Of a stretch of 64,000 nucleotides of DNA, positions 17,735 to 45,190 are shown piece after piece. Position 1 is the first letter of the stretch; each line of letters opens with the position of its first letter. The notes under the pieces were generated by a model. That model was given only the letters and a program-made list of their open reading frames with translations. It ran no database searches and was not told where the DNA came from. This stretch comes from the human T2T-CHM13v2.0 reference genome, Homo sapiens. A program made the position numbers and the translations under genes. The stretch lies in assembly GCF_009914755.1 (NCBI RefSeq), contig NC_060936.1; one strand, given 5' to 3'.

Positions 17735-19242
<1,508 letters not shown>

Positions 19243-19330
19243 GAGAGTTCTCTTTTCTTTGGGTAGGGCAAGGCAAACTGGAATGGATTCACCGGAGAGC
19301 TGTGCGCATGCCCTGGAAAGCATTCTGGTT
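19243..19330 (+). pseudogene. 28S rRNA pseudogene, internal fragment
   Basis: 'gagagttctcttttctttg...ctggaatggattcacc...gccctggaaagc' matches recalled mid-28S GAGAGTTCTCTTTTCTTTGTGAAGGGCAGGGCGCCCTGGAATGGGTTCGCC. Confidence 0.8.
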
Positions 19331-19797
19331 AGACCCATGTGAGACAGGTTAGTTTTATTGTGTGTTCCTCATGTGTTGCTGCCATGGTCATCCTGCTCAG
19401 TAGAAGAGGAACAACAGGTTCAGACATTTGGCCTATGTCCTTGGCTGAGGAGCCAATGGGGTAAAGCTACCATATGTAGGATTATGACTGAACGACTCTA
19501 AGTCAGAATCCCGCCCAGGAGGGATATGGCAGCTCCACGGACCTTTTGTTGGCCTCGGATAGGCGATCCTCGCCGTGCGCCGGGAACCGGGGTCTGGTGC
19601 AGACAGCCCTTCATCCTGGGAAACGCGCTGCTGCCAGAAAGGCGGTCACTCCCTGACCCATCACGTAATGTGTTTGTGGGGAACCTGATGCTAAGCTATT
19701 CGTAGACGCCCTGCTTCTGGGTCAGGGTTTTCTATGGAGCAGAGCAGCTCCCTCCCTGCCATCTATTGAAAATCAGATCTCCACACAAGGGTCTCTC
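19327..19797 (+). pseudogene. 28S rRNA pseudogene, 3'-terminal ~470 nt
   Basis: 'gtgagacaggttagtttt', decayed sarcin-ricin loop 'ctcagtagaagaggaac' (AGTACGAGAGGAAC in rRNA), 'ggattatgactgaacg', and 3' end 'atctattgaaa...acacaaggg'. Confidence 0.95.
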
Positions 19798-20332
19798 CAC
19801 CCGTGTGTGGGGGACCTGGTGATATGGCGTGTCCTTGTGTAATTCAACCTTTGACGTGTACTTTTCTTCCTCCCTCCTGTTGCCCCTGGGGACCTCGTTC
19901 CCTGGCCCGCTCATGCCCACCCGCCCCGGAGCTCCGGAACACACAGCGGGTGTCTCTCGCCAGAGCCCATCAGCGCCCGCTGTGCATTTGGGAGGCGCCC
20001 GTCCCCACCGGCGGGCTTTCCAAGATGCCACGCGGGGGATTGCCGAGGTAGGGGTGGCGCACCTGCTCGTAGTTCCACCTCTCCGATTCCACCTCCTCCC
20101 CACACCCCTCTGGGAACTCCTCCAGGGGCTGGGATCGGATTCATTGAGCCTGTTGAGAATGGCTGAGGCGTGGGTGTCGGAGGGTGTGCCCCTGAGGTTT
20201 CTGTCCCAGTAATGTTCACGCATGCCCGGTGGTGGCCTTTGGGGTCACTGCCCCTCTCCCCGCCCCAGGTGCGCGGGGCTGGGATATGAGCCAGTCACTG
20301 CCTTTGTGCCTTTCCTTCTCTCTCCGCTGCCG

Positions 20333-20343
20333 GGTTCAACCAG
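20333..20343 (+). terminator. Degenerate Sal box (TTF1 site) downstream of 28S
   Basis: GGTTCAACCAG, 9/11 match to GGGTCGACCAG, preceded by a pyrimidine tract ~540 nt after the 28S end. Confidence 0.5.
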
Positions 20344-23300
20344 CGGACAGTGGGGGAACGGCGGGCAGGTCGGTGGAGTTAGATGACAGTAAAGGTGGGC
20401 CGGCTCTGTGTGATAAGATTCCAACTGGGTCCGACCGCTTCCGTCCGCTGGCGCCGGGTCCCCCAGACGTCTGCGGCGAGCGTTGGAACTGACCATCAAC
20501 CTGGGATTTCTAAGGAATAACAGATAACTCTGGTCAGCAGCACTACCACTTTTGTCCACTAGATGTCGCTCCTTCACTACGTTGTTTCTTCCTCTCCAAT
20601 TGTTTCCACAGTATTTTCAGTTGCTCTTCATTTTGTTTTTATTTTTCCTTTTACTTTTCTTACTCCTCTTTCTACACACTGAAGTTGCTGTTGTTTTACG
20701 TTTACTTCCTTTTTTTTTTTGAGAAAAGTTGGCGTGTGAGAATGCGATCTCGGCTCATCGCAGCCTGGACCTTCCTGGGCTCCGTCAGGTGATCTTGCCA
20801 TCTCAGTCTTCCAAGTGGCTGAGACTGCAGGAATAGCTTGATTCTGGGATGTCGAAGCTGCAGTGAGCCATGATCACGCCACTGCCCTCCAGCCTGAGTG
20901 ACAGAGAAAGACCCTGTTTCAGAAAGTAAGAGAGACAGGTTAAAGAAATAACTCCTTGAAATTACTACAATTAATTGTGATCTAAATTACTTGTTATATT
21001 TTTCACTCCCACTAGTTTATTATTATTGTTGTTGTTATTATTTATTTGTATTATTGTTTGTTATAATTGTTATTGTTTTTATTATTTAGTTATTTAGAGA
21101 TGGAGTCTTGGTCTATCACCCAGACTGCAGTGCAGTGGCACGACCTTGGCTCACTGTAGCCTCATATTCCCGGGTTCAAGTTCGAGACCAACCTGGGCAA
21201 TATGGCATAACAACCGTGTCTACTAAAATCTATCACTGATACTCCCAGGGCCGTTGGATATGGCAGGTGCAAGTTCGGAGGCTGAGGCAGGCGGTTCGCT
21301 AAAGTTTGGGAGTTCGAGATGAGCCTGGGCAACAGGCTGCAGTGCATTTGCCTGACCAAGGCCCACCACAGCCTCTACCTCCCCAGCCCAAATGATGCTC
21401 CCACCTCAGGCTCCAAAGGAGCTGAAACTACAGGCGCCTGCCATCACGCCCGGCTAACTTTTTAATTTTTTCTTTTTGAAAGTAGAGACGTGGTCTCACT
21501 GTGTTGCCAGGGCTGGTCTCAAACTGCTGGGCTCAAGTGATTCTTCCACCTCAACCTCCCAAAGTGTTGGGATTATAGGTGTGAACCATGATGCGCTTCC
21601 CTCTTTTTCATTTCCTTTATTTTTCCTTTTTTCTTCCTCTTTCTTTCTTTTTCTTTCTTTCTTTTCTTTTTCTTTCTTCTCTCTCTCTTTTTCTTCCTCC
21701 CTTCTATCATTTCTCATTCTCTTTTTCTGTTTCTCTTTCTATTTTCTTCGTTATCTTTCTTCCCTTTACATCTCTGTCTCTTTTTCTTTACATTTTTTTT
21801 TAATCTTTTTTGCTGTCTGTCTTTTCTCAATTCGTTTCCTCCCATCCCTCCAACTGTCTGTCTTCGTGTGGATTCTGGAAGAGTCTCCTCATTCTGTATC
21901 CCCTGTGTATCACAAGCCTCTGAGACTTTTGCTTTGTTCTTTTCTCCTTGTTGCATAAAAGGCATTCACTCTTCTTTTATTTTGGTACTCTGTGGACGGT
22001 CGAGGGCTGGAAAGAAAAAAAACGGACCATGAATTTAATTGGTTTCACAAGAGACATGGGAGACCAAAGAACACACGATGAGTACTTTGCTAAATATCCT
22101 GTTTATTCTCCCAACCAGGCTCATAAAAGTACAGATGCATCCGGTGGGTTGAGAGATCTCTGTGTAGTCGTGACCCTGCAATTATACTTGACAGGAGCGG
22201 TGATGACAGACGGGTGGCACAGAAACCTGCCCTTCTTTGGTACCAATTGAGCATGGTGACAACATATTCAAAATGGCCCATGTCTCAACTTGATGGTCCT
22301 GTTTTTCTGCTCTGTTCTTTAGGAATGAGTGGAGCCTTCCCGTGCTCCGCCATTTCCTTGCATTTTTCTTTTTACATACATTCATTCACTTATTTATTTA
22401 TTAATTTATTTTAAATAGAGTCTCATTCTGTAGCCCAGGCTGTGGCGTGGTATCGGCTGGCTGCAATCTCTGCCTCCCTGGTTCCAGCGATTCTCCTGCC
22501 TCAGCCTCCCAAGTAGCTGGGATTACAGGCGTATGCCACCCTACTCAGCTAACTTTTGTTTTTTTAGTAGAGACAGAGTTTCACCATGTTGCCCAGGCTG
22601 GTGTTGAACTCCTGACCTTCAGGGATCTGTCTGCCCCAGCCCCCCAAAGTGCTGGGATAACAGGCGTGAGTCACTGCACCCGGCCTAAATTGCAATTTTT
22701 CAAAATAAATGTGTTTTTTGTTGTTGTTGTTGTTGTTGTTTAATAAATAGAGCATCACCTAGTAACCACTGTTATTGAAAGTCGAGGTGGCACTGAGGGA
22801 GGCCTGTCCAACTTCACAGAGCCTGGGACAACCACTTTCTCTATTTCCCCTCTGGAGGCCCCTCCCTCTCTCCTTCGCTGCCTAGGGAACCTCCATCCTG
22901 TCAGGGACCCTGTTGTTCTTTTATCCTCCTGTGTAAATGGTGTCTCGTTCAGTTGCCGAGGCGGTGGCATTGTCTCAGCTGGCTGCACTCTCTGCCTCCC
23001 TGGTTCAAGCAATTCTGCTGCCTCAGCCTCCCTATCAGCAGAAATTACCGGCACGTGCCACCCTATCTAGCTAACTTTTGTCTTTTTTAGTAGAGACAAG
23101 GCTTCACCATGTTGGCCAGGCTGATCTCCCAATCCTGATTTCGTGATCTTCCAGCCTCGGCCTCCCGAAGTGCTGGGATGACAGTCATGAGCCACTGTGC
23201 CAGGCCACCATCATTGGTTTTAACTGGGAATTCTAGATTTGAAGCACACATCATTCTATGCCACAGAATGACTTCTTTATCCTGCTGACTCAAGAAGCTG

Positions 23301-25481
23301 GGCCCCTTGTGATTCATTTCAAACCAAGAGTCACCTCATGTTTGGAAAACAGATCTGCTCCCAAGTTCAGTGGAGAGATGTGGCATGTAGGACAAGGGAC
23401 TGTTCCTTCTGATTTAGTCTCCACGGTGGGGTTTAGGGCTGGAGCTCAGTGCAGATTGTTGACTCCCTATACCTTGGGTTCCATTGTCCCCACCCTGGAA
23501 CATGGGCCTTTGCAGATCCCGGCCCTTCCTGGCCCTTAAGGCACTGTCAGAAACACCATCACGAGCTTGGATACCCCGAATGACTGTGGCTCACTCCTCT
23601 CTGGAAACATTTGAAATCTGTCCTCTACGCGTGGCCACCTAAAACCACAGGAGTGTGGGATACTTGGCCGCCATCCACCTCACTGCTTTCGGGAGAGAAT
23701 GCTGAAAGTCTCTTGCTGACTCTCTTGACTCGAGTTCTTCAAGGGCATGTGGTCAGGACATAGTGAGACCAGATGTATTAAGTCAGGCTGGGTGTGGTGG
23801 CTTACACCTGCAACCCCAACACTTTGGGAGGCCAAGGCGGTAGGATCGCTTGAGCCTGGGAGCTCAAGACCAGCCTTGGACAACACGGCCAAAACCTGAG
23901 GTGCATGCCTGTGGTCTCAGCTACTCAGGAGGCTAAAGTGGGAGAATCACCTAACCCTGGGGTGGTTGAGGCTGCAGTGAGCCGTGATGGTGTCACTGCA
24001 CTCCAGCCTGGGTGACAGACAGAGTGATACCCTGTAGCAAACAGACAGACAGACAAGAGCTATATTATGTCCTTCTCAGGGTAGGAAGCAAAAGTAACAG
24101 AATATGGTATTTAAGATTTTTTTAAATTTTAAATTTCAATCTATTTATTTATTAATTTTGACTCCATATTATGAAACCAGCTAATTTTTGTATTTTTGTA
24201 GAGACGAGGCTTCACCATGTTGCCAAGTATGGTCTTGATTGCCTGGGATCAAGGAATCCACCCGCCCTCAGGCTCCCAATGTTCGAGAATTAAAGGCGTG
24301 AGCCACTGCTCCTGACAGCATTGTTTTTTGTTTGTTTGTTTGTTTGTTTCTTTTTTTAATCTCTTGTCTTTCCAGGAGTTTCACGGCAGAGTGTTTGGCT
24401 GGCTTGTTTAAATTCATTCTAAATAGGAACTGAGGATATCAGCTTCTGGCCTCATGGACTCAGAGCTGATGAGTCCCAAAAACTCATAAAGTTTAAAATA
24501 AATAATTTTGTTGTACAGAAATACACGGATGCACCCAAAACACAGAAACAATTCTTTTAAAAGTTGTCTTAGTCCTGGTGGGTGTGCCAGTGATTCTTTT
24601 AGGTTTGGAGCTTGACTGAGAGAATTTCCAGTCGGTCTCTGGATGGAAGTTCCAGATGATCCGATGGGTGGGGACTTAGACTGTGTCCCCCCAGGGGCCC
24701 TGGTCTATTAGTTGTGGGGACTGCCTGGGAGAGCGTGGTGACCCACTGTACTGTGGGAGCCTCTACCCTTCCCCTCCCTTCTCCCCCTCCGGGTGATGCC
24801 AATTCATTCCAGGCTGAAACTCTCATTGGCAGACTTTGGGCATCACCTAGTGGCCACTGTTACTCTGAAAACTGAGGCCTCAAGGAAGAAGAAAGCTCAT
24901 GGTGCCTGTACACAGCCCAGGGCAACTGTGTCGTCTCCACTTCTCCTGCCGCCACCTCCAAGTTTCTCCCTCCCTTGTTTCCTAGGGAATCACCACCCTG
25001 ATGACTGGGTCTGATTCTTCTTTGATCAGTTAAAAAAATAAATAAATATGCCGGGAGTGGTGGCTCACACCTGTAATCCCAGCACTTTGGGAGGCAGAGG
25101 CGGGCAGATCACGAGGTCAGGAGTTCAAGTCCAGCCTGGCCAGTATGGTGAAAACGTATCTCTACTAAACATACAAAAAACTAGCCATGCATGGTGGTGC
25201 ACACCTGTAATCCCAGCTACTCAGGAGGCTGAGGCAGGAGAATTGCTTGAACCCAGTAGGTTAAGGTTGCAGTGAGCCAAGATAGTACCACTGCACTCCA
25301 ACCTGGGCAACAGAGTGAGACTCAGTCTCAAAAAAAAAAAAAAAAAGGGGGGGGGGGGAAGAGGCCAGGCGTAGTGGCTCACACCTGTAATCCTAGCACT
25401 TATGGAGGCTGATGTGGGCAAATCACCTGAGGTTGGGATTTCGAGACCAGCCTGACCAACACGGAGAAACTGTCTCTACTA

Positions 25482-25808
<327 letters not shown>

Positions 25809-25870
25809 TTACAGGTGTGAGCCACTGCACCCAGCTATGTGTACTTTCTATGTGTACTTTCTTTTTTTAA

Positions 25871-26032
<162 letters not shown>

Positions 26033-26136
26033 TGACTAATTTTTGTATTTTTAGTAGAGACAGGGTTTCGCTGTGGTCGCCAGGCTGGTCTCAAACTCCT
26101 GACCTCAAGTGATCCACCCGTCTCAGCCTCTCAAAG

Positions 26137-26721
26137 TGTGAGAAAGAATTTCTGGGTGCTAGATGAGTTGGTCTCTCCTTTGTGAGACACCCATGAGGAG
26201 TCATGGGCGGCCTCTGAGGAGAAAAGTCTCCTTATTGCCTTCATGTCTTTATGCCCTGAGAGCATAACAGCTCAGAGGCATTCCACAGGTTGTTAAGGGA
26301 GATACCACACTCCCTTGAAGCAGTGGAATATAATCGAACATGTTGGCTCCTCCTGAAATCCACTCCCATCCATTTCAGTCCCGATAAGTTAAATATCTTA
26401 AGTAGTTTAGACACACACCTTTGCTCAAGGAAATTCACAAAAACCGCCACTCCTACACATCTTATTGCATGACTCACGAGTTCTCTTTCACTGATTAATC
26501 CTTTTCCTCATCCCTTTCTACCCCTCCCATCTGCCCTAAGAACAAACAGCTTGTAAGCCAATGAATTCAGTGGAGCCCGAGAGCTCTGGGCCGTGAGCAA
26601 GCCTCCGATGCTCCTGTCCCCTGGACCCGCCACTTTAACACTTATTTTGTCTCTTTCCAACTCCTTTGTCTCTGCCGGACTCGGGGTACCCACTGGCTGG
26701 TGCAAGGCTGGTTTCCCCACA
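26137..26721 (+). mobile_element. Solo HERV-K LTR (LTR14B-like) inserted in an antisense Alu
   Basis: TG...CA ends, ~585 bp, TSD CAAAG (26132-26136/26722-26726) interrupting Alu 'caaagtgctg'. Family from recall. Confidence 0.75.
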
Positions 26722-27486
26722 CAAAGTGCTGAGGTTACACGCATGAGCCACTGCGCCCAGCTATGTGTAATTTCATAACTCAGCTCATTTCTTGACTGGG
26801 TACCATGGGCATTTGGGCCACTTTCTCATGGAACTTACTTGTGCTTCAGGATCTGTTCAGACCCAATCAGGTCCACAGCACTTCCGTGTCATGCTGGAGT
26901 GCTGCTGTGCACACCCACTTATGCCCAGTGTGTGATGAGTGGCTCAGCTCACATGGTAACTTCGTGGCCCCACGGTTGGGCATTTGGTTTCTACTAACAG
27001 CCAGAGGCTAGCTGAGAGAGCCTGTCGCTCAAAAGAAGAATGGTTATCTGCAGATAATGGCAGGGCCTTGCTCCGAAATCCTCAAGACCTCCTCTGTGAT
27101 TTGGAATAGCCTATGTCTCAAATGGATGGTCCTGTTTTTCTGCTCTGGTCTTCAGGAACAAGTGGAACCTTCCCATGCTCTGCCACCTCCTTGCATCTTT
27201 TTATATTCATCTATTCATTTATTCATGTATTTTTTAGAGACGGGGTCTTCCTGTGTCGCTGAGGCTGGAGTGCAGTGGTAGGATCATAGCTGGCTGCAAC
27301 CTTGAACTGCTGGGCTCAAAGCGATCTTCCTCCGCCTCAGCCTCCCAAGTAGCTGGGCCTACAGGCAAGGGTGTGAGCCACAAAACAGCACAACGCCTGG
27401 CTAATTATCTTCATTATTATTATTATTGTTTTCTTGCTTCTTTTCTGAGACAAAGTCTCCCTCTGTCACCTGGGCTGGAGTGTAAT

Positions 27487-27917
<431 letters not shown>

Positions 27918-28056
27918 TGACCAGGCTGGTTTGGAACTCTTGACCTCAGGTGGTCTGCCCACCTTGGCCTCCCAAAGTGCTGGGGTGATGGGTGTGGGCC
28001 ACCACTCCCAGCCACTTCTTTTGTTACTAGAAATGGGCTCTCTCACTATCATAGTA

Positions 28057-28569
28057 TGTTGGAACCTAGCCCCCCCAAATCTGGCCATAAACAGTCCCCA
28101 AAACTGGCCATAAACAAAATCTCTGCAGCATTGTGACATGTATGTAATGGCCCTATTGCCCAAGCTGGAAGGTTGTGGGTTTACGTGAATGAGGGCAATG
28201 AACACCTGGCCCACCCAGGGCAGAAAACCGCTTAAAGGCAATCTTAAGCCACAAACAATAGCATGAGCAATCTGTGTCTTAAGGGCGTGTTCCTGCTGCA
28301 GTTAAGTAGCCCAACCTATTCATTTAATTTGGCCCATCCCTTTGTTTCCCATAAGGGATACTTTTACTTAATTTAATATCTATAGAAACAATGCTAATGA
28401 CTGGTTTGCTGTTAATAAATATGTGGGTAAATCTCTGTTCGGAGCTCTTAGCTCTGAAGGCTGTGAGACCCCTGATTTCCCACTTCATACCTCTATATTT
28501 CTGTGTGTGTGTCTTTAATTCCTGTAGCGCCACTGGGTTAGGGTCTCCCCAGCCGAGCTGGTCTCGGCA
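28057..28569 (+). mobile_element. Solo MER9 LTR (HERV-K9/HML-3)
   Basis: TGTTGG...CTGGTCTCGGCA, repeated 'ctggccataaac', AATAAA; perfect 6-bp TSD ATAGTA (28051-28056/28570-28575). Confidence 0.9.
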
Positions 28570-31500
28570 ATAGTATAAACTCATCTATATCATGGGATAT
28601 GGCACATGCATTTGTACATGCGTACGTGCATGTGTTTCTCCATGTTTTCCCAAGCCAGGGAAAACATGCTTCTTCCTCTGCAGGGGCTCTGGTAGATTAG
28701 TTGTTGGGAGCTCCTCAGAGGGTGCTGGGCTGACACTCTCATCCGTTTTTGAAGTCTAGGTGGCACACAGGATGCTGTGGCCACCCGCCCATGGTAAGGA
28801 GTGAGTGTGGTTTCTCTCTGCACCCCCTGCCCCCACCCCTGCCCTTGGAGGCCCACCCTACCTCTGTCCATCTGTTCTCCCACTCCCTCGTTGCCCAGAA
28901 AACCTCTGGAGATTCTGGCTGCGCCAGATTGTTGATCTTTTTGATCAGCTGGTTCCTTTTCTTTGTGTGTTTGATCCGTGTGGACTCTTCTGCCTCGGTT
29001 TTAAAGATGGCAGCTCCACCCTAGGCCTTTTTGTTAGTGGAGACTTTTCTGATTCTCCCCAGATGTTGTGAAAGCAGGTAAATGTCAAGTGTGTGGGACT
29101 AAATGGCATTTCCTAGAAATAACCAAATGAGTGTGGAGGAAGAAACATGCACTACACACCTTTCAAGGCAGCAATGGCAGCACTATGAATTTGGTGTCAT
29201 TTCTGGAGTCAGATTTTGTCCTGAGTTGCCTTCCTTGTTGCCCCATCCAGGAGGTTCTGGAAGGTTAGAAAACATTCCAGAGTGAACTACTGTGCCACCG
29301 TCCCCTCCCCGTCCTGTTTTGTCCCCTCCCCCTCACCTCAGTATCTCTCCTTCGATTCTGGCAGCTTTGCTCTTCCTCCTTCCCTCCCTAGGGAAACTCA
29401 ACCACCCTAGCTAAGCCACCGTAGTCACTTTTTACCATTATAATATTTTTCTTTCCCTGGCCAGGATATTGGTAAAGTGGAAAGTGTGTCATAGCCCCAC
29501 CCTGGGCCTTACTACTTTTTAGAGGTTTTTTTAATTCATCTTTCTATCTTTCTCCTTTCATCTCTGTCTTCCGAATTTATTTCTCCAGTTCCCTTTCTCT
29601 CTTCCTTCCTTCCTTTTTTCTTTCTTTCTTTTCTTTTTTTCTTTCTTTCTTCCTCTATCCTTTTTCCTTTCTTTCTCTTCTTTCTTTCTCTATCTCTTTC
29701 CATATTTCTCTCTTCCTCCTTCTTTTTACTTTTTCTTTCTTTTTTGATTTTTTTGAGATGGAATCTCACTGTGTTACACAGGCTGGAGTGCAGTGGCTCC
29801 ATCTCAACTCATGGCAACCTCCACCTTCCGGGTTCAAGCTGTTCTTCTGCCTCACCACTGCCCCCCACACCTGACCTGCCTAGGTAACTGAGACTACAGG
29901 TGCATGCCACCATGCCTGGCTAATTTTTGTATTTTTAGTAGAGACAGGGTTTCACCATATTGGCCAGCCTGGTATCGAACACCTGACCTGGTGATCCACC
30001 CACCTCAGCCTCCCACATTGCTGGGATTACAGCCGAGAGCCACTGCACCCACCCATTGTTTCTTTTAAAAATATTTTTCCTTTCAGAAATCGACCTCCTT
30101 CTTCATTTCCTTTATATTTTTTCTTGCAGGACTCGCAATCTTTATTGGTTCAAGTTTTTCAGACAGAATCTAGCTCTGTCACGTGGGCTGCAGTGCATTG
30201 GCCTGACCATGGCTTACCATAGCCTCGACCTTCTGAGTCCAAGAGATGGTCTTATGTCAGCCTTTCGAGGAGCTGTGACTACAGACGCATATCCTCATTC
30301 CATGCTAACTTTTTTCCCCTTTTTTTTTCTTTAAGTAGAGACAGGGTCTTGCTATGTTGCCAGAGCTGATCTCAAACTCCTGGGCTCAGGCTATTCTCCC
30401 ACCTAACCTCGCAAAGTGTTGGGATTATAGATGTGAGTCACCATGCCCTGCCCTCTTTGTTATTTTCTCCTCCTTACCTTTTTATTTCTCTTTCTATCTT
30501 TATTTCTTGTCTTTTCTTTCTTTCTTTCTTCTACTGTCTTTTATTATTTTTCTTTTTTCTTCTTTCTTTTTTCTTTCCTCTCTCTGTTTTTTTCCTCCTG
30601 GCTTTCCTTCATTTCTTTCCTCATTCTTTATCTATTTCATCTTTCTTCTCTCTCTATGTCTCTTTCTTTCTTTCTTTATATTTCTTTCTCTAGATTTTTA
30701 AAATTCTGTCTCTCTCTGTTTCTCATTTCCTTCCTCCCTCCCTCCCTCGCTACTCCCTTCCCTCCCTCCTTCCCTTCCTCCGTCTGTCTCTTTTCTCCAT
30801 TCCCTTTCTCCCTCTCTCCCTCCCTTCCTCTGTCTGTCTTTGTCTGGATTCTAGAAGACTCTCCTCATTCTGTATCTTCCTGTGTCCTAACTGACCAGCA
30901 ACGAAGTCCCGTTTCTTCTTTCTTCTTCCGAGATGCATCTTCAAACTCCCGCGTGCCACAGGTTGTCTTTTGACTCTATAGCAGTCTATGCAGAAACATG
31001 TTTGGGGAACGGTTTCTGTGAACTTGGGGAGGAGGGGCTGCATTTTTGGCCTCAAAAAAACTTCAAATCATGGTTTGGGCTTCCCAGTCATGGGCTGCCC
31101 TGCCATCTGGAGCTCTGGAGTGTCACTTGTGAGTCAGAGCTCAGTCATGCAGGGCTTTGTGGGGGGAGTCTCTTTCCGTGCTTCCGTGCACAAGGGCAGT
31201 GTGGGGCTGCCCCGGCTGGTCGAATAGCATTCCACAACTCCTGAGGCTTGACCTGAGACGCAGGGGCATTGTGCGGGTGGCTGGGGATGCCCTTCCTGGC
31301 CCAGCGGCAGGCCAGTGCAGGTCCTGGCCATCTGAGGCATCTGCTGAATTATTTTCCAAGTCCCTGGTGGAGTCAGGGACCATCCTGCACTGTCCTCTGG
31401 TTACCGAGGAGCGGTCACCGGGCCCAGCCCTAGTCCATCTGCCCTGATCTTTTTTTCCAAGTTCCTGTGCAGAGTCAGAGAGCGGTCCCTGAGCACGCAT

Positions 31501-31672
31501 GTGGTCCGAGAGGTGACACCTGGCCAGGCTTTGGTCCCTCATGTGATCTGGTCATGTGAGGGACTGGCCAAAAATGACTCTGAGTCTCGCTCTGGAGAAA
31601 CGGGCCAGACCCTGCATTGCACAGGTGGCCAGGAGGGTGTCCCTGGCCCTCTGCTGCTCCTGTGTGTGTCCT

Positions 31673-31685
31673 GGGGTTGACCAGA
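31673..31685 (+). terminator. T0 promoter-proximal Sal box (TTF1 site)
   Basis: GGGGTTGACCAGA ~176 nt upstream of the +1 homologue, identical to the recalled human T0. Confidence 0.85.
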
Positions 31686-31689
31686 GGGC

Positions 31690-31866
31690 CCTGGGTGTTC
31701 CGTGTCTGGCTGCCATGGTGGCCTTTTTGGGGATAGATGTCCAGATCGCTCATTTCTGGGCTAGTGGTGTGGTCGGTGACTCGACACCCTGCCCCCAGGC
31801 GAGGTATATCTTTCACTCCGAGTTGGCATTTTGGGCCACCAGGTTGTTGCTGACTCCTTGTCTGGG
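31690..31866 (+). promoter_or_regulatory. RNA polymerase I (45S) promoter relic: UCE plus core, +1 at 31849
   Basis: UCE-like 'tccgtgtctggctgccatggtggcctttttgggga'; core 'gaggtatatctttcactccgagttggcattttgggccaccaggttgtt|gctgac' versus human GAGGTATATCTTTCGCTCCGAGTCGGCATTTTGGGCCGCCGGGTTATT|GCTGAC. Confidence 0.92.
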
Positions 31867-33190
31867 GATTAGATTGGGCCTCTAGATGCATGTGAAGCTC
31901 TAGTATACTGGCAACCCAGCTAACAGGCCCTGCTCCAGCTTGAGCTGATTGCTGGGACCCGTGTGCTTGCTCTCACACATCCTAGTGTCATAACTGTCAG
32001 TGGTGCCCTGGGTCTCTGGGCCTTTGACCCTGGCAGGGAAGGCAGCAGGCAGCTTGGGCTCCCCGACCTGTGTGCTTCCCCACTGCGGGCACAAGAGGTG
32101 GTCAGAACAACCCCACCCTGTTGGCTCTGTGCTGTGCACATCAGGCATTCTCTTCCTTAAATTGTCTGCTGTCCCTATCCTAGAGTGAGGCTGGCTTTGC
32201 TGTTATGCCCATCAGGTTCATCAAGACTGACCCCCACTCAACCACCGCCTCGCTATGGGGCTTTTCATGATATATGTGGTGACATCACGCTCTCCTGGGC
32301 CGGGACTAAGCCAGGAGGAGCAAATAATGGAAATTCATGGTGAATGAAACCGTTCTTCTCGTTCTGCTCGTGAGGCCCCTCGTCTCTCCTCCCTGCCTCC
32401 TGGGAGGCATGGGGCAGGGAATTTGGCATGACCTCGCTGCCCTCACACCTTGTGCCTTGGCTTCTAGAAGATTGATGGAGTCTTCTGACACAGCAGGCAC
32501 CTTTGCTCTGGCTTCCTGTGGTTGTTGCCTTGGGGGTGGACAGGGCACCTCTCCCGGGCCATAGGGGACTGTCCCTACAAAACATTTCTGGGATGCGAAA
32601 GGGTTGGCACCACCTGGGCCTTTGTGGTGATCCAGTAGTGCTCCAGATTGCTACCACGTGCCCGAGACAAAACAGTGGTGGGTTGTGCCAACCCCAAGTG
32701 CCCTCTCCTACAACCAACACTACGGTGTTTGCAAGTGCGTCCTGAAGAGGTCGTTGGGTGGGGCGAGGCGGATGAGTGAGGCAGGCCCCTCCCACTCGAT
32801 AAGAGATGCCGCCTTGTCTGTCAAGTGTATGTCCCATGCTCCACTCTGCCAAGTGCGCACAAGACTTGGGAGCGATTGTGGTAAGATTCTGTGTACCATC
32901 GTGGTGTGTGGGCCTTGGGGAGGCCTTTTGCCCCAGAGAGAAGGGCGGATAAACAGAGGGACTTTGGGGGTGAGTACATGCATGCCAGGCAACGGCCCTG
33001 ATAGAAAGTACTCAAAATTTGCCACAGGCTTTTGGTCGTAAGGCAGACGACTTTCTTCGTCAGGCGGCCATGAGCGAATCTTCAGGCACAACGAGGGGCA
33101 ACTGGCGGGGAAGGAGTGTGACAAAAACTCGGTGAGAAAGCCTTCTTTAGTAATACGAAAGGTGAGCCAATGGGGTACAAAATACCCCAG
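31849..33190 (+). pseudogene. 45S pre-rRNA 5'ETS pseudogene, truncated just after the A0 region
   Basis: CpG-decayed colinear match to 5'ETS; A'/01 motif 'gatatatgtggtgac' at ~+420 (GATCGATGTGGTGAC in human); 'ctcggtgagaaagccttct' at ~33128. No 18S follows. Confidence 0.88.
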
Positions 33191-33272
33191 TCCAAGGTAT
33201 CTGTTTATAATAATGATTCCGTTGATGTGCATAAGCAGAGTTCCCTACTTTTACCATAAATAAGGACAGAAG

Positions 33273-36200
33273 CCGCGGGGGTCGTGGAGTCCCTGGCTTA
33301 CACCCAGGGTGCGTGTCACCCCCACAAGGGGCACCAGAAAGCGGCAAGAAGACCCCCGGGGGAAGAGAACAGGAAGCCAGGCTTTAAAGGGGACTTTGAG
33401 GCAGTCTGGGAAAAAACTTCCCATGGAAAACAGTGCCTACCCAGCTGACCCTGGGCCGGGCTTTGGGAAGTTGTGGAGTTCCTGACTTGCACCCAGGGTG
33501 CGTGTCAAGCCCATAGGGGACACCCCAAAGTGGCAAGAAGGCCTCTGGGGGAAGGGAACAGGACGCCAGTCTTGATAGGGGACGTTGAGGCAGCACGGAA
33601 AAATAAAAAATAAAAAAAGGCGGGCCAGCGTCATCCAACGGATGACAGTGTCTTCCCGGCAGCCCCTGTGTTCGGTCCAGGGGGGTCATGGAGTTTCTGC
33701 CTTGCACCCAGGGGCGTGTCGTGCCCACGGGGGGCATCCCAAAGCGGCACTAAGGCCCCTGAAGGAAGGGAAAAGGATGCCAAGCTTGAAAGAAGATGTT
33801 GAGGCAGCACAGGGAAAAAGCGGTGGGCTGGGATCCTCCCACTGACAGTAGTGCCATCCCAGCAGCCTCTGCGCTGGAACCAAGGGTATCCTGGATCCCT
33901 GGCTTGCACCCAGGGTGCGTTTCTCGCCCACGGGGGGCACCTCAAAGCGGCAAGAAAGCCCCCGAAAGAAGGGGACAGCATGTCAGGCTTGAAGGGGTAT
34001 GTTGAGGCAGCCCGGCGGCAAAAGCGGCGAGGCTGGAGTCCTCCCACGGACGACAGTGCCTTCTCCGCAGCCCCTGTGCCAAGCGCGGAGTGGTCGTGGA
34101 GTACCTTACTGCCACCCAGCGGGCGTGTCTCTCCCATGGGGGGCACCCCGAAGCGGCAAGAAGGCCCCCGGGGGAAGGGAAAAGGACGCAAGGCTTGAAA
34201 GGGGACGTTGAGGCAGTCGGATAAAACTTCCCACCGAATACAGTGCCTTCCCAGCAGCCTCTGCGCCGGGCCCAGAGAAGTCATGGAGTCCCTGGCTTGC
34301 ACCCAGGGTGGGTGTCGCGCCCACGGTGGGCACCCCAAAGCGGCAAGAAGGCCTTTCGGGGAAGGGAACAGGACACCAGGCTTGAAAGGGGATGTTGAGG
34401 CAGTCCAGGGAAAAACTTCCCACGGAGGACAGAGTCTTCCCAGCAGCCTCTGTGCCAGAACCAGGGAAGTCGTGGAGTCCCTGGCTTGCACCCAGGGTGC
34501 GTGTCTAGCCCCCGGGGGTACCTCCAAGCGGCAAGAAGGCCATAGGGGTAAGGAAACAGGACGCTAGGCTTGAAAGAGGGCGTTGAGACAGCATGGGGAA
34601 AAAGGCGGCAGGCCGGGGACGTGTCATGGATGACAGTGCCTTTCCAGCAGCCCCTGCGCCAGGACAGTGGGCGGGGGGGTGGGGGGTGGGTGTCGTGGAT
34701 GGCTTGCACCCAGGGTGCGTGTCTCACCCATGGGTAGCACCCCAAAGCGGCAAGAAGGCCCGCAGGGGAAGGAAACAGGATGCCGGGCTTGTAAGGCGAC
34801 GTTGAGACGCTCCAGGGAAACAGTTCCCAAAGACGACTGTGCCTTCCCAGCAGCCCCTCCACCGCGCCCGGGGAAGTCATCAAGTCCCTGGCTTGCACCC
34901 AGGGTGCGTGTCGCACCCAGTGGGGACATGCCAAAGCGGCAAGTAGGCCTCTGAGAAAACGAAACAGGACGCCAGGCTTGAAAGAGGACGTTGAGGAAGC
35001 ACGGGGAAGAAAAGCAGCAGGCCGGTGTACTCCCATGGACAACAGTGTGTTCCCGGCAGCCCGTGTGCCTGGCCTGGGACGGTCGTGGAGTCCCTGGCTT
35101 GCACCCAGTGTGCGTGTCGCGCCCACGGGGGAACCCCAAAGCAGCAAGAATGCTTTTGGGGGAAGAGAACAGGACGCCAGGCTTGGAAGGGGACGTTGAG
35201 GCAGCACGGGGAAAAAAGCGGCGGGCCGGAGTCATTTCACTGATGACAGTGCCTTCCCGGCAGACCCTGCGCCGGGTTTGGGGTGGTCGTGGAGTCCCTG
35301 GCTTGCACCCAGTGTGCGTTTAGCGCCCACGCGGGCACCCCAAAGAAGGCCTTTAGGGAAGGGAACATGATGCCAGGCTTGAAATGGAACGTTGAGGCAG
35401 CACGGAGAAAAACGCGGGGGGTCGGGGTCCTCCCACCGACGACAGTGCCTTCCTGGCAGTCCCTGCGCCGGGCCCGGGGGAGTCGTGGAGTCCCTGTCTT
35501 GCACACAGGCTTCTCGCCCATGGGGGGCAACCCAAAGCGGAAAGAAGTCCCCAGGTGAAAGGGAACAGGACGCTAGGCTTTAAATGAGATGTTGAGGCTT
35601 CCCGGGGGAAAAGCAGTGGGCCGGGGTCATCCCACGGATGACAATGCCTTCCTGGCAGCCCCTGCACCTGGCCAGGGGGTATCGTGGAGTCCTTCACTTG
35701 CACCCAGGGTGTGTGTCGCGTTTACAGAAGGCACCCCAAAGAAGCAAGAAGGCCTCCGGGGAAAGGGAAAAGGATGCCAGACTTGAAAGGTGATATTCAG
35801 GCAGGAAGGGGTAACAAGAGGTGGGCTGGAGTCCTCCCATGGACAACAGTGTGTTACCGGCAGCCCCTGCGCTGGCCTCAGCGAGGTCGTGGAGTCCCTT
35901 GATTGCACCAAGGGTGGGTGTCACGCCCACGGGGGGCACCGCAAAGCGGCAAGAAGGCTTCTGGGGGAAGAGAGCAGGATGACAGTCTTGAAAGCAGACG
36001 TTGAGGCAGCACGGAGAAAAAAGCGGCAAGCCACATCCTCCCACAGAAGACAGTACCTTTTAGTCAGCCCCTGCACTGGGCCCGGGGGTTTTGTGGAGTC
36101 CCTGGCTTGCACCCATGGTGCATTTCTTGCCCACGGAGGGCACATAAAAGCGGCCAGAAGGCCTTCGAGGGAAGGGAACAGGATGCCAGGCTTGAAAGGG

Positions 36201-39200
36201 GACGTTGAGGCAGCACTGGAAAAAAGCAGTGGGCCAGGATCCTCCCACGGATGACAGTGTTTTCCCGGCAGCCCCTGAGCCAGGCCCTGGAGGGTCGTGG
36301 AGTCTCTGGCTTGCACCAAGGGTGCGTGTGAAGCCCACGGGGGACACCCCAAAGCGGCAAGAAGGCCTCCGGGGATAGGGAACAGGACGCCAGGCTTGAA
36401 ACAGGACGTTGAGGCAGCACAGGGAAAAAAGCGGAAGGCCGGAGTCCCCCCCACGGATGACAGTGCCTTCCAGGCAGCCACTGCGCCATGCCCGGGGGGC
36501 TTGTGCAGTCCCTGACTCCCACCCAGGCTGCGTGTCGCACCCACAGGGGTCACCCTAAAGCGGCAAGAAGGCCCCAGGGGGAAGGGAACAGGACGCCAGG
36601 CTTGAAAGGGGACTTTGAGGTAGTCCGGGGAAAAACTTCCCACGGAGGACAGTGTTTTCCCCGTAGCCCCTGCGCCAGACCCGGGAGAGCCATGCAGCCC
36701 ATGGCTTTCACCCAGGGGGCGTATCGCTCCCATGAGGGACACCCCAAAGCAGCAAGAAGGCCTCCGGGGGAAGGGAACATGACGCCACGATTGAAATGTG
36801 AAGTTGAGGCAGCACGGGGAAAAAAGCAGCAGGCCAGGGTAGTCCCACGGATGACAGTGCCTTCCCGGCAGCCGCTGCGCCTGTCCTGGGAGGGTCGTGG
36901 ATTCTCTGGCTTGCACCCAGGGTGGCATCGCGCCCACTGGAGGCACCCAAAGGGGAAAGAAGGCCCCAGAGGGAAGGGAACAAGACGCCAGGCTTGAAAG
37001 GGGACATTGAGGTAGCACGAGGAAAAAACTGATGGGTTGGTGTCCTCCCACGGATGACAGTCACTTCCCGGCAGCTTCTGCGCCGGAACCAGAGGGGTCG
37101 TGGGTCCCTGGCTTGCACCCAGGGTGCGTGTCTCGCCCACAGGGGGCACCCCAAAGTGGCAAGAAGGCCCCCAAAGGATGGAGACAGCACATCTGGCTTG
37201 AAGGTGGATGTTGAGATAGCCCGGGAAAAAAGCGGTGAAGCTGTGTTCCTCCCATGGACAACAATGCCTTCCCTGCAGCCCCTGCGCCGGGCCCGGGGGA
37301 GTTGTGGAGTCCCTGTCTTATACCAGGGTAGGTTTCTCGCCCATGGCGGGGGCGCATCCCAAAGCGGAAAGAAGGCCCCCGGGGAAGGGGAACAGGACGC
37401 TAGGGTTTAAATGAGATGTTGAGGCTGCCCGGGGGAAAAGCGGCGGGCCAGGGTAGTTCCACGGATGACAGTGCCTTCCTGGCAGCCCCTGCGCCTGGCC
37501 CGGGGGCGGGGGGGGGTGGTCGTGGCGTCCCTGGCTTGCAGGCAGGGTGTGCGTTTCGCCCACAGGGGCTCCCCAAAGGGGAAAGAAGGCACCCGAGGGA
37601 AAGGGACCGCACATCAGGCTTTAAGGGAGAGGTTGAGGCAGCATGGGATAAAAGCGGCGAGGCTGGGGTTCTCCCATGGATGACAGTCCCTTCCCGGCAG
37701 CCCCTGCGCCGGGCACTGGGGTGTCGTGGAGTCCCTGGCTTGCACCTAGGGTGCGCGTGTAGCCCACAGGGAACAACCCAAAGCGGCAAGAAGGCTTCTG
37801 GTGGTAGATAACAGGACGCCAGGCTTGAAAGTAGACGTTGAGGCAGTACTGGGAAAAAAGCGGCGGGCCAGGGTCCTCCTACCGACGACAGTATCTTGTA
37901 GGCAGCCCCTGCACTGTTCCCGGGGGGGTTTGTGGAGGCCCTGGCTTGCACCCAGGGTTTGTGTTGCGCCCACGTGTGGCACCTTTAAGAGGCAAGAAGG
38001 CCCCCGGTGGAAGGGAACAGACGCCAGGCTTGAAAGGGGACGTAGAGGAAGTCCGGAAAAAAAACTTCCCAGAGAGTACAGTGGCTCCCCGACAGGCCCT
38101 GCGCCGGGTCTAGGGAGGTCGTGGAATCCCTGGCTTGCACCTAGGGTGTGTGTCGCGCCCATGGGGGGCACCCCAAAGCGACAAGAAGACGCCGGGGGAA
38201 GGGAACAGGACTCCAGGCTTGAAAGCGGATGTTGAGGCAGCACAGGGAAAAAAGCGGCAGGCCAGGGTCTTCCCACGGATGACAGTGCCTCCCGGCAGCC
38301 CCTGCGCCTGTCCCGGGGGGGTCGTGGAGTCCCTGGCTTGCACCCAGGGTGCGTGTCTCTCCCACGGGGGGCACAACAAACTCGCAAGAAGGCCTTAGGG
38401 GGAAGGGAAGCAGACGCGTCTTGAAAAAAGACGTTGAGGCAGTCTGGGGAAAAACTTCCCAGGAGGCACAGTGCCTTCCCGACAGCCCCTGCGCTGGGCC
38501 CGGTGGGGTCGTGAAGTCGCTGGATTGCACCCAGGGTGCGTGTCGCCCCCACGGCGGGCACCCCAAAGCGTCAAGAATGACCCCACGGGAAGGGGAAAGC
38601 ATGTCGGTCTTAAAGAGGGACGTTGAGGCAGCCCGGAGAAAAAAACAGGGAGGCTGGGGTCCTTCCACCGATGACAGTGCCTTCCCGGCATCCCATGTGC
38701 CATCTCCGGGCGGGTCGTGGAGTCCCTGGCTTTCACCCAGGGTGCGTGTATCTCCCATTGGGCCACCCCAAAGTGGCAAGAAGTCCCCCAGGGGAAGGAA
38801 ACAGGGTGTTAGGCTTAAAAGGGGACATTGAGGCAGCACGGGGAATAAGGCTGTGGGTTGAAGTCCTTCTAACAATGACGCTGCCTTCCTGGCAGCCTCT
38901 ACGCCCTGCCCAATAGGGTTGTGGAGTCGCTTGCTTGCACCCAGGGTGCGTGTCGCACCCCAGGGGGCACCCCAAAGCGCCAAGAAGGCCTCCGGGGGAA
39001 GGGAGTAGAACGCCAGGCGTGAAAGGTGACGTTGAGGCAGCACGAGGGAAAAAGCAGCAGGCAGCGATCGTCACACGGACGACAGTGCCTTCCCGGCAGC
39101 CCCTGCGCCAGACTCGGGGTTGTCGTGGAGTTCCTGACTTGAACCCAGGGTGCGTGTCGCGCCCACGGGGGGACACCCCAAAGCGGCAAGAATGCCCCCT

Positions 39201-42200
39201 GGGAAGGGAACAGGACGCCAGGCTTGAAAGGGGACTTTGAAGCAGTCCAGGAAAAAACTTCCCACGGACCACGGTGCCTTCCCGGCAGCCCCTTTGCCAG
39301 GCCCGAGGGGGTTGTTGTGTCCCAGGCTTGCACCCAGGGTTCCACGGGGGGCACCCCAAAGCGGCAAGTAGGTTCCCAGGGGAAGGGGACAGCACGTCAG
39401 GCTTGGAGGGGGACGTTGAGGCAGCCCCGGGAATAAAGAGGGGATGCTGGGGTCCTGCCACGGATAACACTGTCTTCCCGACAGCATCTGTGGTGGGCCT
39501 GGGAGCGTCATGGAGTCCTTGGCTTGCACCCAAGGTGCGTGTCTCGCCCTCGGGGGGCACCACAAAGCGGCAAGAAGGCCACCGGGGGAAGGGTATGGGA
39601 CGCCAGGGTTGAAAGGGATAGTTGAGGCAGTCCGGGGAAAAACGTGGCAGGCTGGGGTCGTCCCATGGACGACAGTGCCTTCCCAGCAGCCCCTGCGTCA
39701 GGCCCGGGGTGGTCGTGGAGTCCCTGGCTTGCACCGAGGGTGCGGGTCGCACCCATGGGGGCACCCCAAAGTGGCAAGAAGGCCGCCGGGCGAACGCCAC
39801 AGAAGGCCAGGCTTTAATGGGGATGCTGAGGCAGCACAGAGAGAAAAGCGGCTAGTCGGGTTCCTCCTACGGATGACAGTGCCTTCCTGGCAGTCCCTGC
39901 GCTGGGCCCGGGGGGATCGTGGAGTCCCTATCTTGCACCCAGGGTGCGTGTTTCGCCCATGGGAGAGCACCCCAAAGCGGCAAGTAGGCCCCTGGGGGAA
40001 GGGGACAGCACCTCAGACTTGAAGGGGGACTTTGAGGTAGCCCGTGGAAAAAAACGGCGACGCTGAGTTTCTCCCACAAACGACAGTGCCTTCCTGGCAG
40101 CCCCTTCGCTGGGCCAGGGTGGTCCTGGAGTCCGTGGCTTGCACCCAGGGTGCGTGTCTCGCTCACGGGGGCACCCCAAAGCGGCAAGTAGATTCCCGGG
40201 GGGAAGGGAGAGCACGTCAGGCTTGAAGGGGAGGTTGAGGCGGCCCCGGGGTAAAAGTGGTGAAGCTGGGGTCCTCCCACGGATGACACCGCCTTCCTGG
40301 CAGCCTCTGCAGTGGGCCCAGAGGTGTCGTGGAGTCTCTGGCTTGCTCCCAGGTTGTGTGTCTCGCCCACGAGTGGCACCACAAAGCAGCAAGAAGGCCC
40401 CCAGGGGAAGGGTACAGGACTCCAGGGTTGAAAGGTAGAGTTGAGGCAGACCGGTGTCATCCCAAGGACAACAGTGTCTTGTCCGGTAGCCCCTGCATCG
40501 GGCCTGGGGTGGTTGTGGAGTCCCTGGCTTGCACCCGGGGTGCGTGTCGTGCCCACGATGGGCACCGCAATGCGGTAAGAAGTCCCCGAGTGGAAGGGAA
40601 CAGGACGCCGAGCTTGAAAGGGGACGTTGAGGCAGTCCGGGGAAAAAATTTCCACTGAGAACAGTGCCTTCCCGGCAGCCTCTGAGTGGGACCCAGGTGG
40701 ACGGTGGAGCCCCTGGCTTGGACCCAGGGTGCCTGTCTTGCTCACGGGGTGCACGTGAAAGTGGCAACAGGGCCCCCGGGGGAAGGGGACAACATGTCAG
40801 GCTTGAAGAGGGACGTTGGGCCAGCCAGAGGAAAACAGCGGCTAGGCTGTGGTCGTCCCACAGACCACAGTGCCTTCCCGGCAGCCCCTGAGCCTGGCCC
40901 AGGCGGGGGGGTTTGGAGTCCCTGTCTTGCACAGAGTGCGTGTCTCGCCTAAGTGTGCACGCGAAAGCTGCAAGAAGGGCTCCGGGGGAAGGGAACAGGA
41001 TGCCAGGCTTGAAAGGGGACTTTGAGGCAGTCCAGGGAAAAACTTTCCACGGAGGACAGTGACTTCCCGACATCCCCTGCGCCTGGCCCTGGGGGTCTTG
41101 GAGTCCCTGGTTTACACCCAGGGTGCGTGCCTCGCCCACGGGTGGCACCCCAAAGCAGCAAGAAAGCCCCGGGGGGGAAAGAACAGGATGCCAGACTTGA
41201 AAGGGGACGTTGAGGCAGCCCAGGAAAAAAAGGGGCGAGGCTGGGGTCCTTTCACGGATGACAGTGCCTTCCCTACAGCCCCTATGCCAGTCCCGGGAGG
41301 GTCGCGGAGTCCCTGTCTTGCACACAATGTGCGTGTCTCGCCCACGGGGGGCACCCCAAAGTGGCAAGAAGTCCCCCGCGGGAAGGCAACAGGACGCCAG
41401 GCTTGAATGGGGACGTTTAGGTAGCCTGGAGAAAAAAGCAGCGAGGCTGGGGTGATCCCACGAATGACAGTGCCTTACCGGCAGCCCCTTTGCCGGGCAT
41501 GCGGGGGTTGTTGATTCCCTGGCTTGCACCCAGGGTGAGTGTCTTGCCCACGGCGGGCACCACAAAGCAGCAAGAAGGTTCCCGGGGGAAAGGGACAGCA
41601 CGTCAGTCTTGAAGGGGGAAGTTGAGGCAGCCCCGGGGAAAAAAGCGGGGATGCTGGGGTCCTCTCACGGACGACACTGCCTTCCCAGCAGCCTCTGCAG
41701 TGGGCCCGGGAGCGTCCTGGAGTCCCTGTCTTGCACCCCGGGTGCGTGTCTCACCCACGGGGAGCACCACAAAGCGGCAAGAAGGCCACTGGGGGAAGGG
41801 TACAGGACGCCAGGGTTGAAGGGGATAGTGGAGGCAGTCCAAGGAAAAAAGTGGCGGGATGGTGTCGTCCCAAGGATGGCCACCCCTGCGCCGGGCCAGG
41901 GATGGTCGCGGAGTCCCTGGCTTGCACCCAGGTTGTGTGTCTCGCCCACAGGGGGCACCCCAAAGCAGCACGAAGGCCTCCAGGGGAAGGGAACAGGACG
42001 CCAGGCTTGGAAAGTGACGTTGAGGCAGCAGGGGGTAAAAAGTGGCGGGCCGGGCCCTCCCACGGATGACAGTGCCTTCCCGGAAGCCGCTGCGCAGGGC
42101 CCGGCGTGTTTGTGGAGTCTCTGGCTTGCACCCAGAATCGTGCGGCGCCCACGACGGGCACCCCAAAGCGGCAAGATATCCCCCGCTGGAAGGGAACAGG

Positions 42201-42602
42201 ATGCCAGGCTTGAAAGGAGAAGTTGAGCCAGTCCGGGGAAAAAAATCCCATGGAGAACAGTGTCTTCCCGGCAGTCTCTTTGCCGGGTTCGGTCGTGGAG
42301 TCCCTGGCTTGCACCCAGAGTGCGTGTCTTTAAAGCGGGGCATCCTGTTACCATTCTCCGGGGGAATTCTTGCCGCCATGGGGTGCCCCCTGAGGGCGAG
42401 ACACGCACCCTGTGTGCAAGACAGGGACTCCACGACCCCCCCAACCACGAGTCTGCCGCAGGGGCTGCCGGGAAGGCACTGTCCTCCCTGGGAAGTTTTT
42501 CCACAGACTGCCTCAACAACCCCTTTAAAGCCAGGCATCCTGTTCCCATCGCCCAGTGCCCCCGTGGGCGAGACAAGCACCCTGGGTGCAAGTCAGAGAA
42601 TC
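33273..42602 (+). repeat. GC-rich tandem array, ~46 monomers of ~188-218 bp (gamma-satellite GSAT/GSATII-like)
   Basis: Recurring 'ccctggcttgcacccagggtgcgtgtc...gggcaccccaaagcggcaagaag...gcttgaaaggggacgttgaggcag...gacagtgccttcccggcagcccctg'. The tandem structure is certain; the family name is from recall. Confidence 0.85.
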
Positions 42603-45170: not shown

Positions 45171-45190
45171 GCTGGCAGTGGCGCCTGGAT

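What the first reader, a model, noticed from the sequence alone, without database searches (positions are those of the whole stretch)
19798..31848. Compact fossil IGS (~12 kb) with no visible CDC27 pseudogene: a snapshot of an older rDNA spacer?
Seen: 28S end to +1 spans ~12.05 kb, including ~1.3 kb of LTR insertions. IGS-like blocks are in the recalled human order, but no CDC27-like sequence or ORF and no long duplicated CT-rich repeats are visible. Known: the human IGS is ~30 kb and carries a CDC27 retropseudogene reported in apes but not Old World monkeys. Inference: the copy may have left the array before the hominoid IGS expansion and escaped concerted evolution.
Basis: partly seen in the sequence, partly recalled or inferred. 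Interest (0 to 1): 0.7.

Follow-up and report, generated by a model that had tools for sequence, protein, structure and literature searches.

The report
Pre-CDC27 rDNA fossil, shortened by deletion
This is a decayed stray piece of ribosomal DNA on human chromosome 12 that still shows the intact, empty landing site of a pseudogene now present in our ribosomal DNA repeats, so it likely left the gene array 30-45 million years ago, while its short length likely comes from later deletions rather than from a short ancestral spacer.

Summary
The feature is real. A 28S tail (ends ~19797), a 12,051-bp spacer, pRNA/core promoter (+1 = 31849) and 1.4 kb of 5'ETS lie collinear with the chr13 rDNA unit (spacer 33,953 bp). 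Eight other loci (chr12, chr8, chrY) also span the site. The 'compact ancestral spacer' is not supported. Other CDC27-empty relics, and the distal-junction relic that shares this copy's 28S breakpoint, keep about 7 kb that the window lacks, including a module only 52-57% identical to its paralogues and so older than the split. Published monkey spacers are 27-29 kb, so there was no hominoid expansion from 12 kb. Divergence and retroelement content suggest exit about 30-45 Mya (inferred). A composite of relics gives at least ~18 kb. In chr12 (twice), chrY and chr21 copies the relic is followed by gamma-like satellite and 5S relics. Known kind (pericentromeric rDNA pseudogene), older stratum; moderate interest.

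The parts
19061..19286 (.). Non-rDNA flank (Alu end plus unique stretch) joined to the truncated 28S; the same junction is found in the distal-junction relic just before the chr13 array
   Evidence: local alignment to the chr13 relic; matches also on chr14, 15, 21, 22 from window ~19306 onward
19287..19797 (+). Decayed 3' tail of 28S rDNA
   Evidence: Rfam RF02543 19374-19794, 112 bits; alignment from 19287
19798..31848 (+). Fossil intergenic spacer including 3'ETS, 12,051 bp (10,942 bp without the two LTRs and their duplications)
20333..20343 (+). Decayed Sal-box-like terminator (T1 position); the run of R-repeat Sal boxes of the modern unit is absent
   Evidence: motif scan, 2 mismatches: 3 hits in the window spacer, 17 in the modern one
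22710..22751 (+). Junction A: homology with the distal-junction relic stops at 22709 and the next block matches ~18.9 kb into the modern spacer; inferred deletion
   Evidence: same junction in chr8 and chrY copies
22752..22923 (+). Ancient spacer module M1 (paralogues at 24840-25023, 28745-28940, 29341-29425)
   Evidence: nhmmer, module tree
22913..22923 (+). Junction B: 2,778 bp present in the chr12:38.00 Mb relic is absent; short T/G microhomology; inferred deletion
23263..23278 (+). Empty CDC27 retrocopy insertion site: single copy of the 16-bp target that is duplicated around the 3,803-bp insert in modern rDNA
24105..24150 (+). Site lacking the two Alus (about 690 bp; Alu22 and Alu23 by my mapping) of the modern spacer
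25050..25335 (+). AluSg-like element orthologous to modern Alu26 and shared with the long-class relics; modern Alu25 upstream is absent
   Evidence: position, flanks and a private substitution; subfamily names from recalled diagnostic positions
25364..25645 (+). AluSp-like element in the tail of the previous Alu, shared with the chr12:34.09 Mb copy, absent from modern rDNA
26137..26721 (+). Solo LTR (585 bp, 5-bp target duplication), absent from the chr12:34.09 Mb paralogue; LTR14-like, name recalled
   Evidence: 89% match on chrX
28057..28569 (+). Solo LTR (513 bp, 6-bp target duplication); MER9/HML-3-like, name recalled
   Evidence: 92% match on chr11
31674..31848 (+). T0 Sal box, pRNA region and core Pol I promoter, decayed
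31849..33249 (+). Truncated 5'ETS (to about +1540 of the modern unit)
33270..42600 (.). GC-rich ~189-206-bp satellite (gamma/GSATII-like; name from recall and PMC2588610 passages)
   Evidence: TRF; monomer profile has no match to the modern rDNA unit
43129..45170 (-). Two 5S pseudogenes in a decayed ~1.9-kb 5S repeat unit

Best explanation
The stretch is a decayed copy of rDNA (28S tail, spacer, promoter, part of the 5'ETS) with an intact empty site where modern rDNA carries the CDC27 retrocopy; it likely left the array 30-45 million years ago, likely lost about 7 kb of spacer by two deletions, and was then likely spread by pericentromeric segmental duplication. Steps: (1) shown: a unit truncated in 28S is joined to a flank that is also found at the distal edge of the acrocentric arrays; (2) inferred: outside the array it escaped homogenisation, so it missed later array-wide insertions (CDC27P, Alu22/23/25, R-repeat, long-repeat and CT expansions) and decayed at CpG; (3) inferred: deletions A and B occurred once, in the ancestor of the 'short' class; (4) shown: copies with the same architecture lie on chr12p, chr12q, chr8, chr21 and twice on chrY; (5) shown: one LTR is private to this copy. 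It most likely has no function.
For: Empty site with single target copy and both flanks aligned (E 1e-16 and 3.5e-23). 9 of 40 scored matches, the window included, cross the site; 30 start at it and 1 starts later. All 6 of the other 8 that I held as sequence are continuous across it. Tree of 10 rows: short (96/96), long (100/100) and CDC27+ (100/99) groups. Non-CpG K2P: window-modern 0.121; modern to two CDC27-bearing relics 0.049-0.058. Four unique flank blocks (14.5 kb) shared with the chr12p paralogue differ by K2P 0.077-0.085, above the ~6.5% human-macaque figure (recalled). Long-class relics keep the missing blocks at 74-81% identity to modern rDNA. The gap-B module is 52-57% identical to other modules but 89% to its modern orthologue. 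The distal-junction relic shares the 28S breakpoint and keeps a long-repeat piece as diverged from modern rDNA as the window is (non-CpG K2P 0.151). Rooted on its paralogues, module M2 groups short+long against modern (89/83). Published spacer lengths.
Against: The root of short/long/modern is not resolved: Alu-polarised sites give S+L 6, S+M 3, L+M 2 of 496, and the short clade falls to 84/87 without CpG columns. Gap A has no single donor spanning it in my data; it is pieced from two relics. The Alu markers conflict: the window lacks Alu25 (listed in macaque) but shares Alu26 (not found on the same strand in macaque), and that paper's text and S7 Table disagree on Alu22. The age rests on a recalled calibration and recalled repeat names; no monkey or gibbon sequence could be aligned.
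Confidence: 0.75

Rival explanations
1. The deletions happened while the unit was still in a working array: a short-spacer (~11 kb) rDNA variant existed in stem catarrhines and was captured whole.
For: The short architecture is old: it is shared with the chr8 copy at 79-84% identity. Promoter, T0 and a T1-like box are kept in order. The spacer is built of duplicated modules that invite unequal crossover.
Against: The copy begins at a 28S truncation shared with the distal-junction relic, which retains part of the missing sequence, so the loss post-dates that truncation. Mammalian rDNA units stay at ~35-45 kb (PMC11373518 abstract).
Confidence: 0.12
2. The 12 kb is the ancestral primate spacer; everything else was inserted later.
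For: CDC27P, three Alus, R-repeats and CT tracts are indeed later additions; the root is unresolved.
Against: The gap-B module predates the split; long-class and distal-junction relics keep the blocks; monkey spacers are 27-29 kb; MER39B is listed in the spacer of all seven primates in the S2 Fig text (its position could not be read).
Confidence: 0.06
3. The relic left the array only in the stem-ape window, after the Old World monkey split and before CDC27P fixed.
For: It shares Alu26, which PMC6281188 did not find on the same strand in macaque. Pericentromeric sequence may mutate faster than average (general knowledge), inflating the age.
Against: It lacks Alu25, listed as shared with macaque; flank divergence of 0.077-0.085 already post-dates the exit; the distance to modern rDNA is more than twice that of CDC27-bearing relics.
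Confidence: 0.07

Closest known systems
Degraded pericentromeric rDNA units (Robicheau et al. 2017, PMC5381670)
   Same: Displaced DNA-level rDNA copy with coding and spacer parts, near a centromere, decaying
   Different: Their worked examples are on chr20, chr2 and chr21, found genome-wide by megablast; dispersed copies at chr20 and chr2 carry CDC27P in my search. This copy is CDC27-empty and about twice as diverged. Term searches of the main text found no chr12 or cdc27 mention; figures and supplements unseen.
Distal-junction rDNA relic next to the acrocentric arrays (Gonzalez and Sylvester 1997; recalled, seen only as a citation)
   Same: Same 28S truncation and flank; 81-82% identity over the first 3 kb
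   Different: It continues into long-repeat sequence and then joins modern rDNA; it does not reach the CDC27 site or an old promoter
Human rDNA spacer with the ape-specific cdc27 pseudogene (Agrawal and Ganley 2018, PMC6281188)
   Same: Same block order, Sal boxes, promoter, shared old Alus
   Different: Pre-insertion allele; lacks Alu22/23/25, R-repeat run, long-repeat duplication and CT tracts; two large gaps; two solo LTRs
rRNA pseudogenes in pericentromeres of chr16, chr20 and chrY as relics of acrocentric ancestry (bioRxiv 10.64898/2025.12.22.696095, passages)
   Same: Pericentromeric rDNA remnants read as traces of former NOR-bearing chromosomes
   Different: The passages I saw do not describe chr12 or chr8 spacer relics or their age; supplements unseen

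Membership tests
Displaced rDNA pseudogene (orphon) | Coding and spacer parts collinear with the canonical unit | tested here: met
Displaced rDNA pseudogene (orphon) | Outside an array, no intact rRNA genes | tested here: met
   Rfam finds only a 28S tail, pRNA and two 5S in 64 kb
Displaced rDNA pseudogene (orphon) | Loss of homogenisation and CpG decay | tested here: met
   CpG o/e 0.35 vs 1.01, GC 0.56 vs 0.75; 28S tail K2P 0.226
Pre-insertion (empty) retroposon allele | Single target copy, both flanks continuous, filled allele with target duplication and poly(A) | tested here: met
Pre-insertion (empty) retroposon allele | Same state in an outgroup species' rDNA | not testable with these tools
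   primate FASTA and alignment supplements of PMC6281188 cannot be read; the paper reports absence in monkeys
Intact ancestral short spacer | No loss relative to equally old copies | tested here: not met
Intact ancestral short spacer | Basal position among rDNA lineages | tested here: inconclusive
Pericentromeric segmental duplication | Long collinear paralogy that includes unique flanks | tested here: met
   most of the window aligns inverted to chr12:34.065-34.114 Mb at 84-91%
Gamma satellite (GSATII) | Match to the Repbase consensus | not testable with these tools
   period 189-206 bp and GC ~0.62 fit; name otherwise recalled

The most novel reading that the evidence does not exclude
The human genome keeps a datable stack of fossil rDNA spacers from before the ape CDC27 insertion. 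Pieced together they give a stem-catarrhine spacer of only ~18-20 kb, so the 27-31 kb spacers of apes, macaque and marmoset would have been re-inflated independently. The recurring cassette of rDNA promoter/5'ETS, gamma satellite and 5S units would mark the border of a lost nucleolar organiser.
Probability: 0.2. Interest if true: 0.7.

Novelty: new variant of a known kind. Interest (0 to 1): 0.42.

Why it matters
Concerted evolution erases the history of rDNA arrays, so old states are normally seen only in other species. These relics hold the pre-insertion CDC27 site and other empty sites inside the human genome. They let the order of spacer insertions be read directly, and they bear on the open question why mammalian spacers stay long despite turnover (PMC11373518). 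They also tie chr12, chr8, chr21 and chrY pericentromeric duplications to the acrocentric distal junction. The stretch itself is most likely non-functional, and its short length should not be quoted as the ancestral spacer size.

Tried and rejected
CDC27 remnants or ragged loss of the flanks: not found. Gamma satellite derived from the rDNA unit: a profile of 30 monomers had no match to the modern unit at E<=10. Rooting with Alu-polarised sites: inconclusive; the background was 30 Alus picked with a window Alu as query, which biases it. Locating CDC27 gene exons to date the insert: the search returned only 37 array copies. Finding dispersed old-repeat copies of the long-repeat block: the 40 scored hits were all rDNA or rDNA relics. 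Alu27 site: absent from the window but not a clean empty site, so not used. Conserved-element tables: c14, c24 and c32 (62.5, 75.7 and 55.9% identity with marmoset) fall in the gaps by an approximate offset; this is weak because those values also score non-orthologous Alus. Tree rows left out: four CDC27-bearing loci with under 100 bp of flank, a second chr14 dispersed copy identical in flank alignment score, the duplicate modern units, and the chr21, second chrY and distal-junction copies (not held, or lacking the block). Earlier scan findings were not available.

Full report
Observation. Rfam finds a 28S 3' end at 19374-19794, pRNA at 31713-31801 and two 5S pseudogenes. I fetched a full chr13 rDNA unit (28S end and pRNA located). 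The core promoter aligns with +1 at 31849. The window spacer is 12,051 bp and the chr13 spacer 33,953 bp. Shared blocks are in order at about 65-85% identity. The LTRs total 1,098 bp. Pyrimidine-rich tracts are 789 bp against 9,509 bp.

The CDC27 site. PF12895 matches the minus strand of the modern spacer, inside a 3,803-bp insert that starts with a T run and is bounded by two copies of a 16-bp target, 14 of 16 alike. The window has one copy (23263-23278) and aligns to both flanks without a break. The insert has no hit in the window. A genome search with 23196-23790 scored 40 of 247 candidates: 9 cross the site (the window, three more on chr12, chr8 and four on chrY), 30 begin at it and 1 begins later. 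The 6 others that I held as sequence are continuous across it; the 9 loci picked by their CDC27 match showed the right flank only, as they do not extend to the left one, the full chr13 unit gave two separate flank hits, and one locus had no hit.

Three old lineages. The 'short' class (window, chr12:34.09 Mb, chr8:46.41 Mb, chrY 19.23 and 18.48 Mb, chr21:12.42 Mb with a further deletion) has about 10-11 kb between the 3'ETS and the pre-promoter block, 7.8 kb on chr21; the chr12p copy is truncated. The 'long' class (chr12:34.14 and 38.00 Mb, chrY 19.16 and 18.55 Mb) is also CDC27-empty but keeps long-repeat and middle-spacer blocks. A third relic sits at the distal edge of all five acrocentric arrays and shares the window's 28S breakpoint and flank. 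A tree of 10 rows separates short, long and CDC27-bearing groups (96/96, 100/100, 100/99; short falls to 84/87 without CpG columns) but is unrooted.

Why it is short. At 22923 the window jumps over 2,778 bp present in the chr12:38.00 Mb relic. That block holds a copy of an internal module that is 52-57% identical to the other modules but 89% to its modern orthologue, whereas orthologous modules are 81-85% alike between classes. It existed before the classes split, so the window lost it. At 22709-22752 the window leaves the distal-junction relic, which continues into long-repeat sequence as diverged from modern rDNA as the window is. Adding 1,375 + 2,900 + 2,778 bp to the LTR-free window gives 17,995 bp, a lower bound pieced from two relics. 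Against this reading: the root is unresolved (S+L 6, S+M 3, L+M 2 of 496 sites), although module M2 rooted on its paralogues puts modern rDNA outside short+long (89/83). Only a root on the short branch would allow the gaps to be ancestral, and the module age argues against that.

Literature on length. PMC6281188 (passages, section 18, part of section 25, six supplements; its FASTA and alignment files unreadable) gives spacers of 30.6 kb (human), 30.6 (gibbon), 28.8 (macaque) and 26.9 (marmoset), and cdc27P in apes only. PMC11373518 (abstract, passages) reports 35-45 kb units across mammals. A hominoid expansion from 12 kb is thus not supported. Low human-monkey spacer identity (32.7% and 25.4%) leaves room for an ancestor near 18-20 kb.

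Age (inferred). Non-CpG K2P is 0.121 to modern rDNA, against 0.049-0.058 for two CDC27-bearing relics. Unique flanks shared with the chr12p paralogue differ by 0.077-0.085, above the recalled ~6.5% human-macaque value, and that duplication post-dates the exit. The classes share an AluSg-like element with almost no common mutations (1 of 200 sites), so they split soon after it inserted. The window lacks modern Alu22, 23 and 25 (numbering mapped by order and recalled subfamily marks onto). The paper lists Alu25 in macaque but not Alu26, which the window shares, and its text and table disagree on Alu22; these markers conflict. One LTR is absent from the chr12p paralogue. Spacing suggests the other is shared with chrY and chr21 but not chr8 (inferred). 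If it is HML-3 (name recalled), PMC5142424 passages give ~35 Mya. I estimate 30-45 Mya.

Context. The 5'ETS stops near +1540 and runs into a ~200-bp GC-rich satellite, then 5S repeat relics. The same order recurs on chrY (twice), chr21 and chr12p. The satellite shows no homology to rDNA. The predicted lncRNA and the RefSeq silencer (24576-24870) lie in spacer-homologous sequence; I did not test them.

Prior description. PMC5381670 (abstract, sections 21 and 24, term searches) established degraded pericentromeric rDNA units; its main text has no hit for chr12 terms or cdc27, but Fig. 4 and supplements were unseen. bioRxiv 10.64898/2025.12.22.696095 (passages), PMC13041921 (passages) and PMC2588610 (passages) mention other rDNA remnants or chr12 GSATII. 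Nine searches on rDNA and satellite terms (listings only for papers not named above) showed no description of CDC27-empty human relics. The library lacks most subscription papers, including Gonzalez 1993, 1995 and 1997 (recalled or seen as citations only).

Verdict. A real pre-CDC27P rDNA fossil of a known kind and an older stratum; the empty site is shown, the deletions and the age are inferred, and the compact-ancestor idea is unlikely. Interest 0.42.

Noticed in passing
window 1-62841 vs G000:C12:34065226-34114345: Nearly the whole window is an inverted segmental duplication across the chr12 centromere (84-91% identity), with copy-specific insertions.
   Followed up: partly
window 33250-45600; G000:C24:19245146-19255752, C24:18463285-18473892, C21:12413675-12418461, C12:34081503-34089641: The order rDNA 5'ETS, gamma-like satellite, 5S repeat relic recurs in five places; the satellite length differs greatly (about 0.8 kb on chr12p to 9 kb here).
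   Followed up: partly
L011-L012 (G000:C13:5764343-5770545): The distal-junction relic shares its 28S breakpoint with the window and switches abruptly to 98%-identical modern rDNA; a 92% copy of it lies at C15:14.81 Mb.
   Followed up: partly
L024-L025 (G000:C12:34143087-34152243): About 9 kb interrupts the long-class relic at the position of a CT tract; not identified.
   Followed up: no
L025, L028, L010 (after the AluSg-like element): All three long-class relics end in L1 ORF1-like sequence (recalled) at the same point.
   Followed up: no
window 21335-21908 vs 30186-30885; 22275-22365 vs 27110-27200: Internal duplications (66-74% for the first; the second seen by eye) show that the old spacer was built of repeated modules.
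   Followed up: partly
window 25800-28880 and 29115-29520: The relic holds about 2 kb of non-LTR spacer that the modern unit lacks, so modern rDNA has likely lost sequence too.
   Followed up: partly
L030, L031, L032, L036: Dispersed CDC27P copies on chr20, 14 and 22 keep 357-aa open frames, longer than the 129-147 aa of array copies.
   Followed up: no
G000:C7:106315645-106315977 and C8:134627415-134627694: Isolated 66-76% matches to the old 3'ETS and to a pre-promoter block far from centromeres.
   Followed up: no
window 232-770: A (GATGGT/GAT)-type repeat of about 540 bp overlaps a RefSeq silencer.
   Followed up: no
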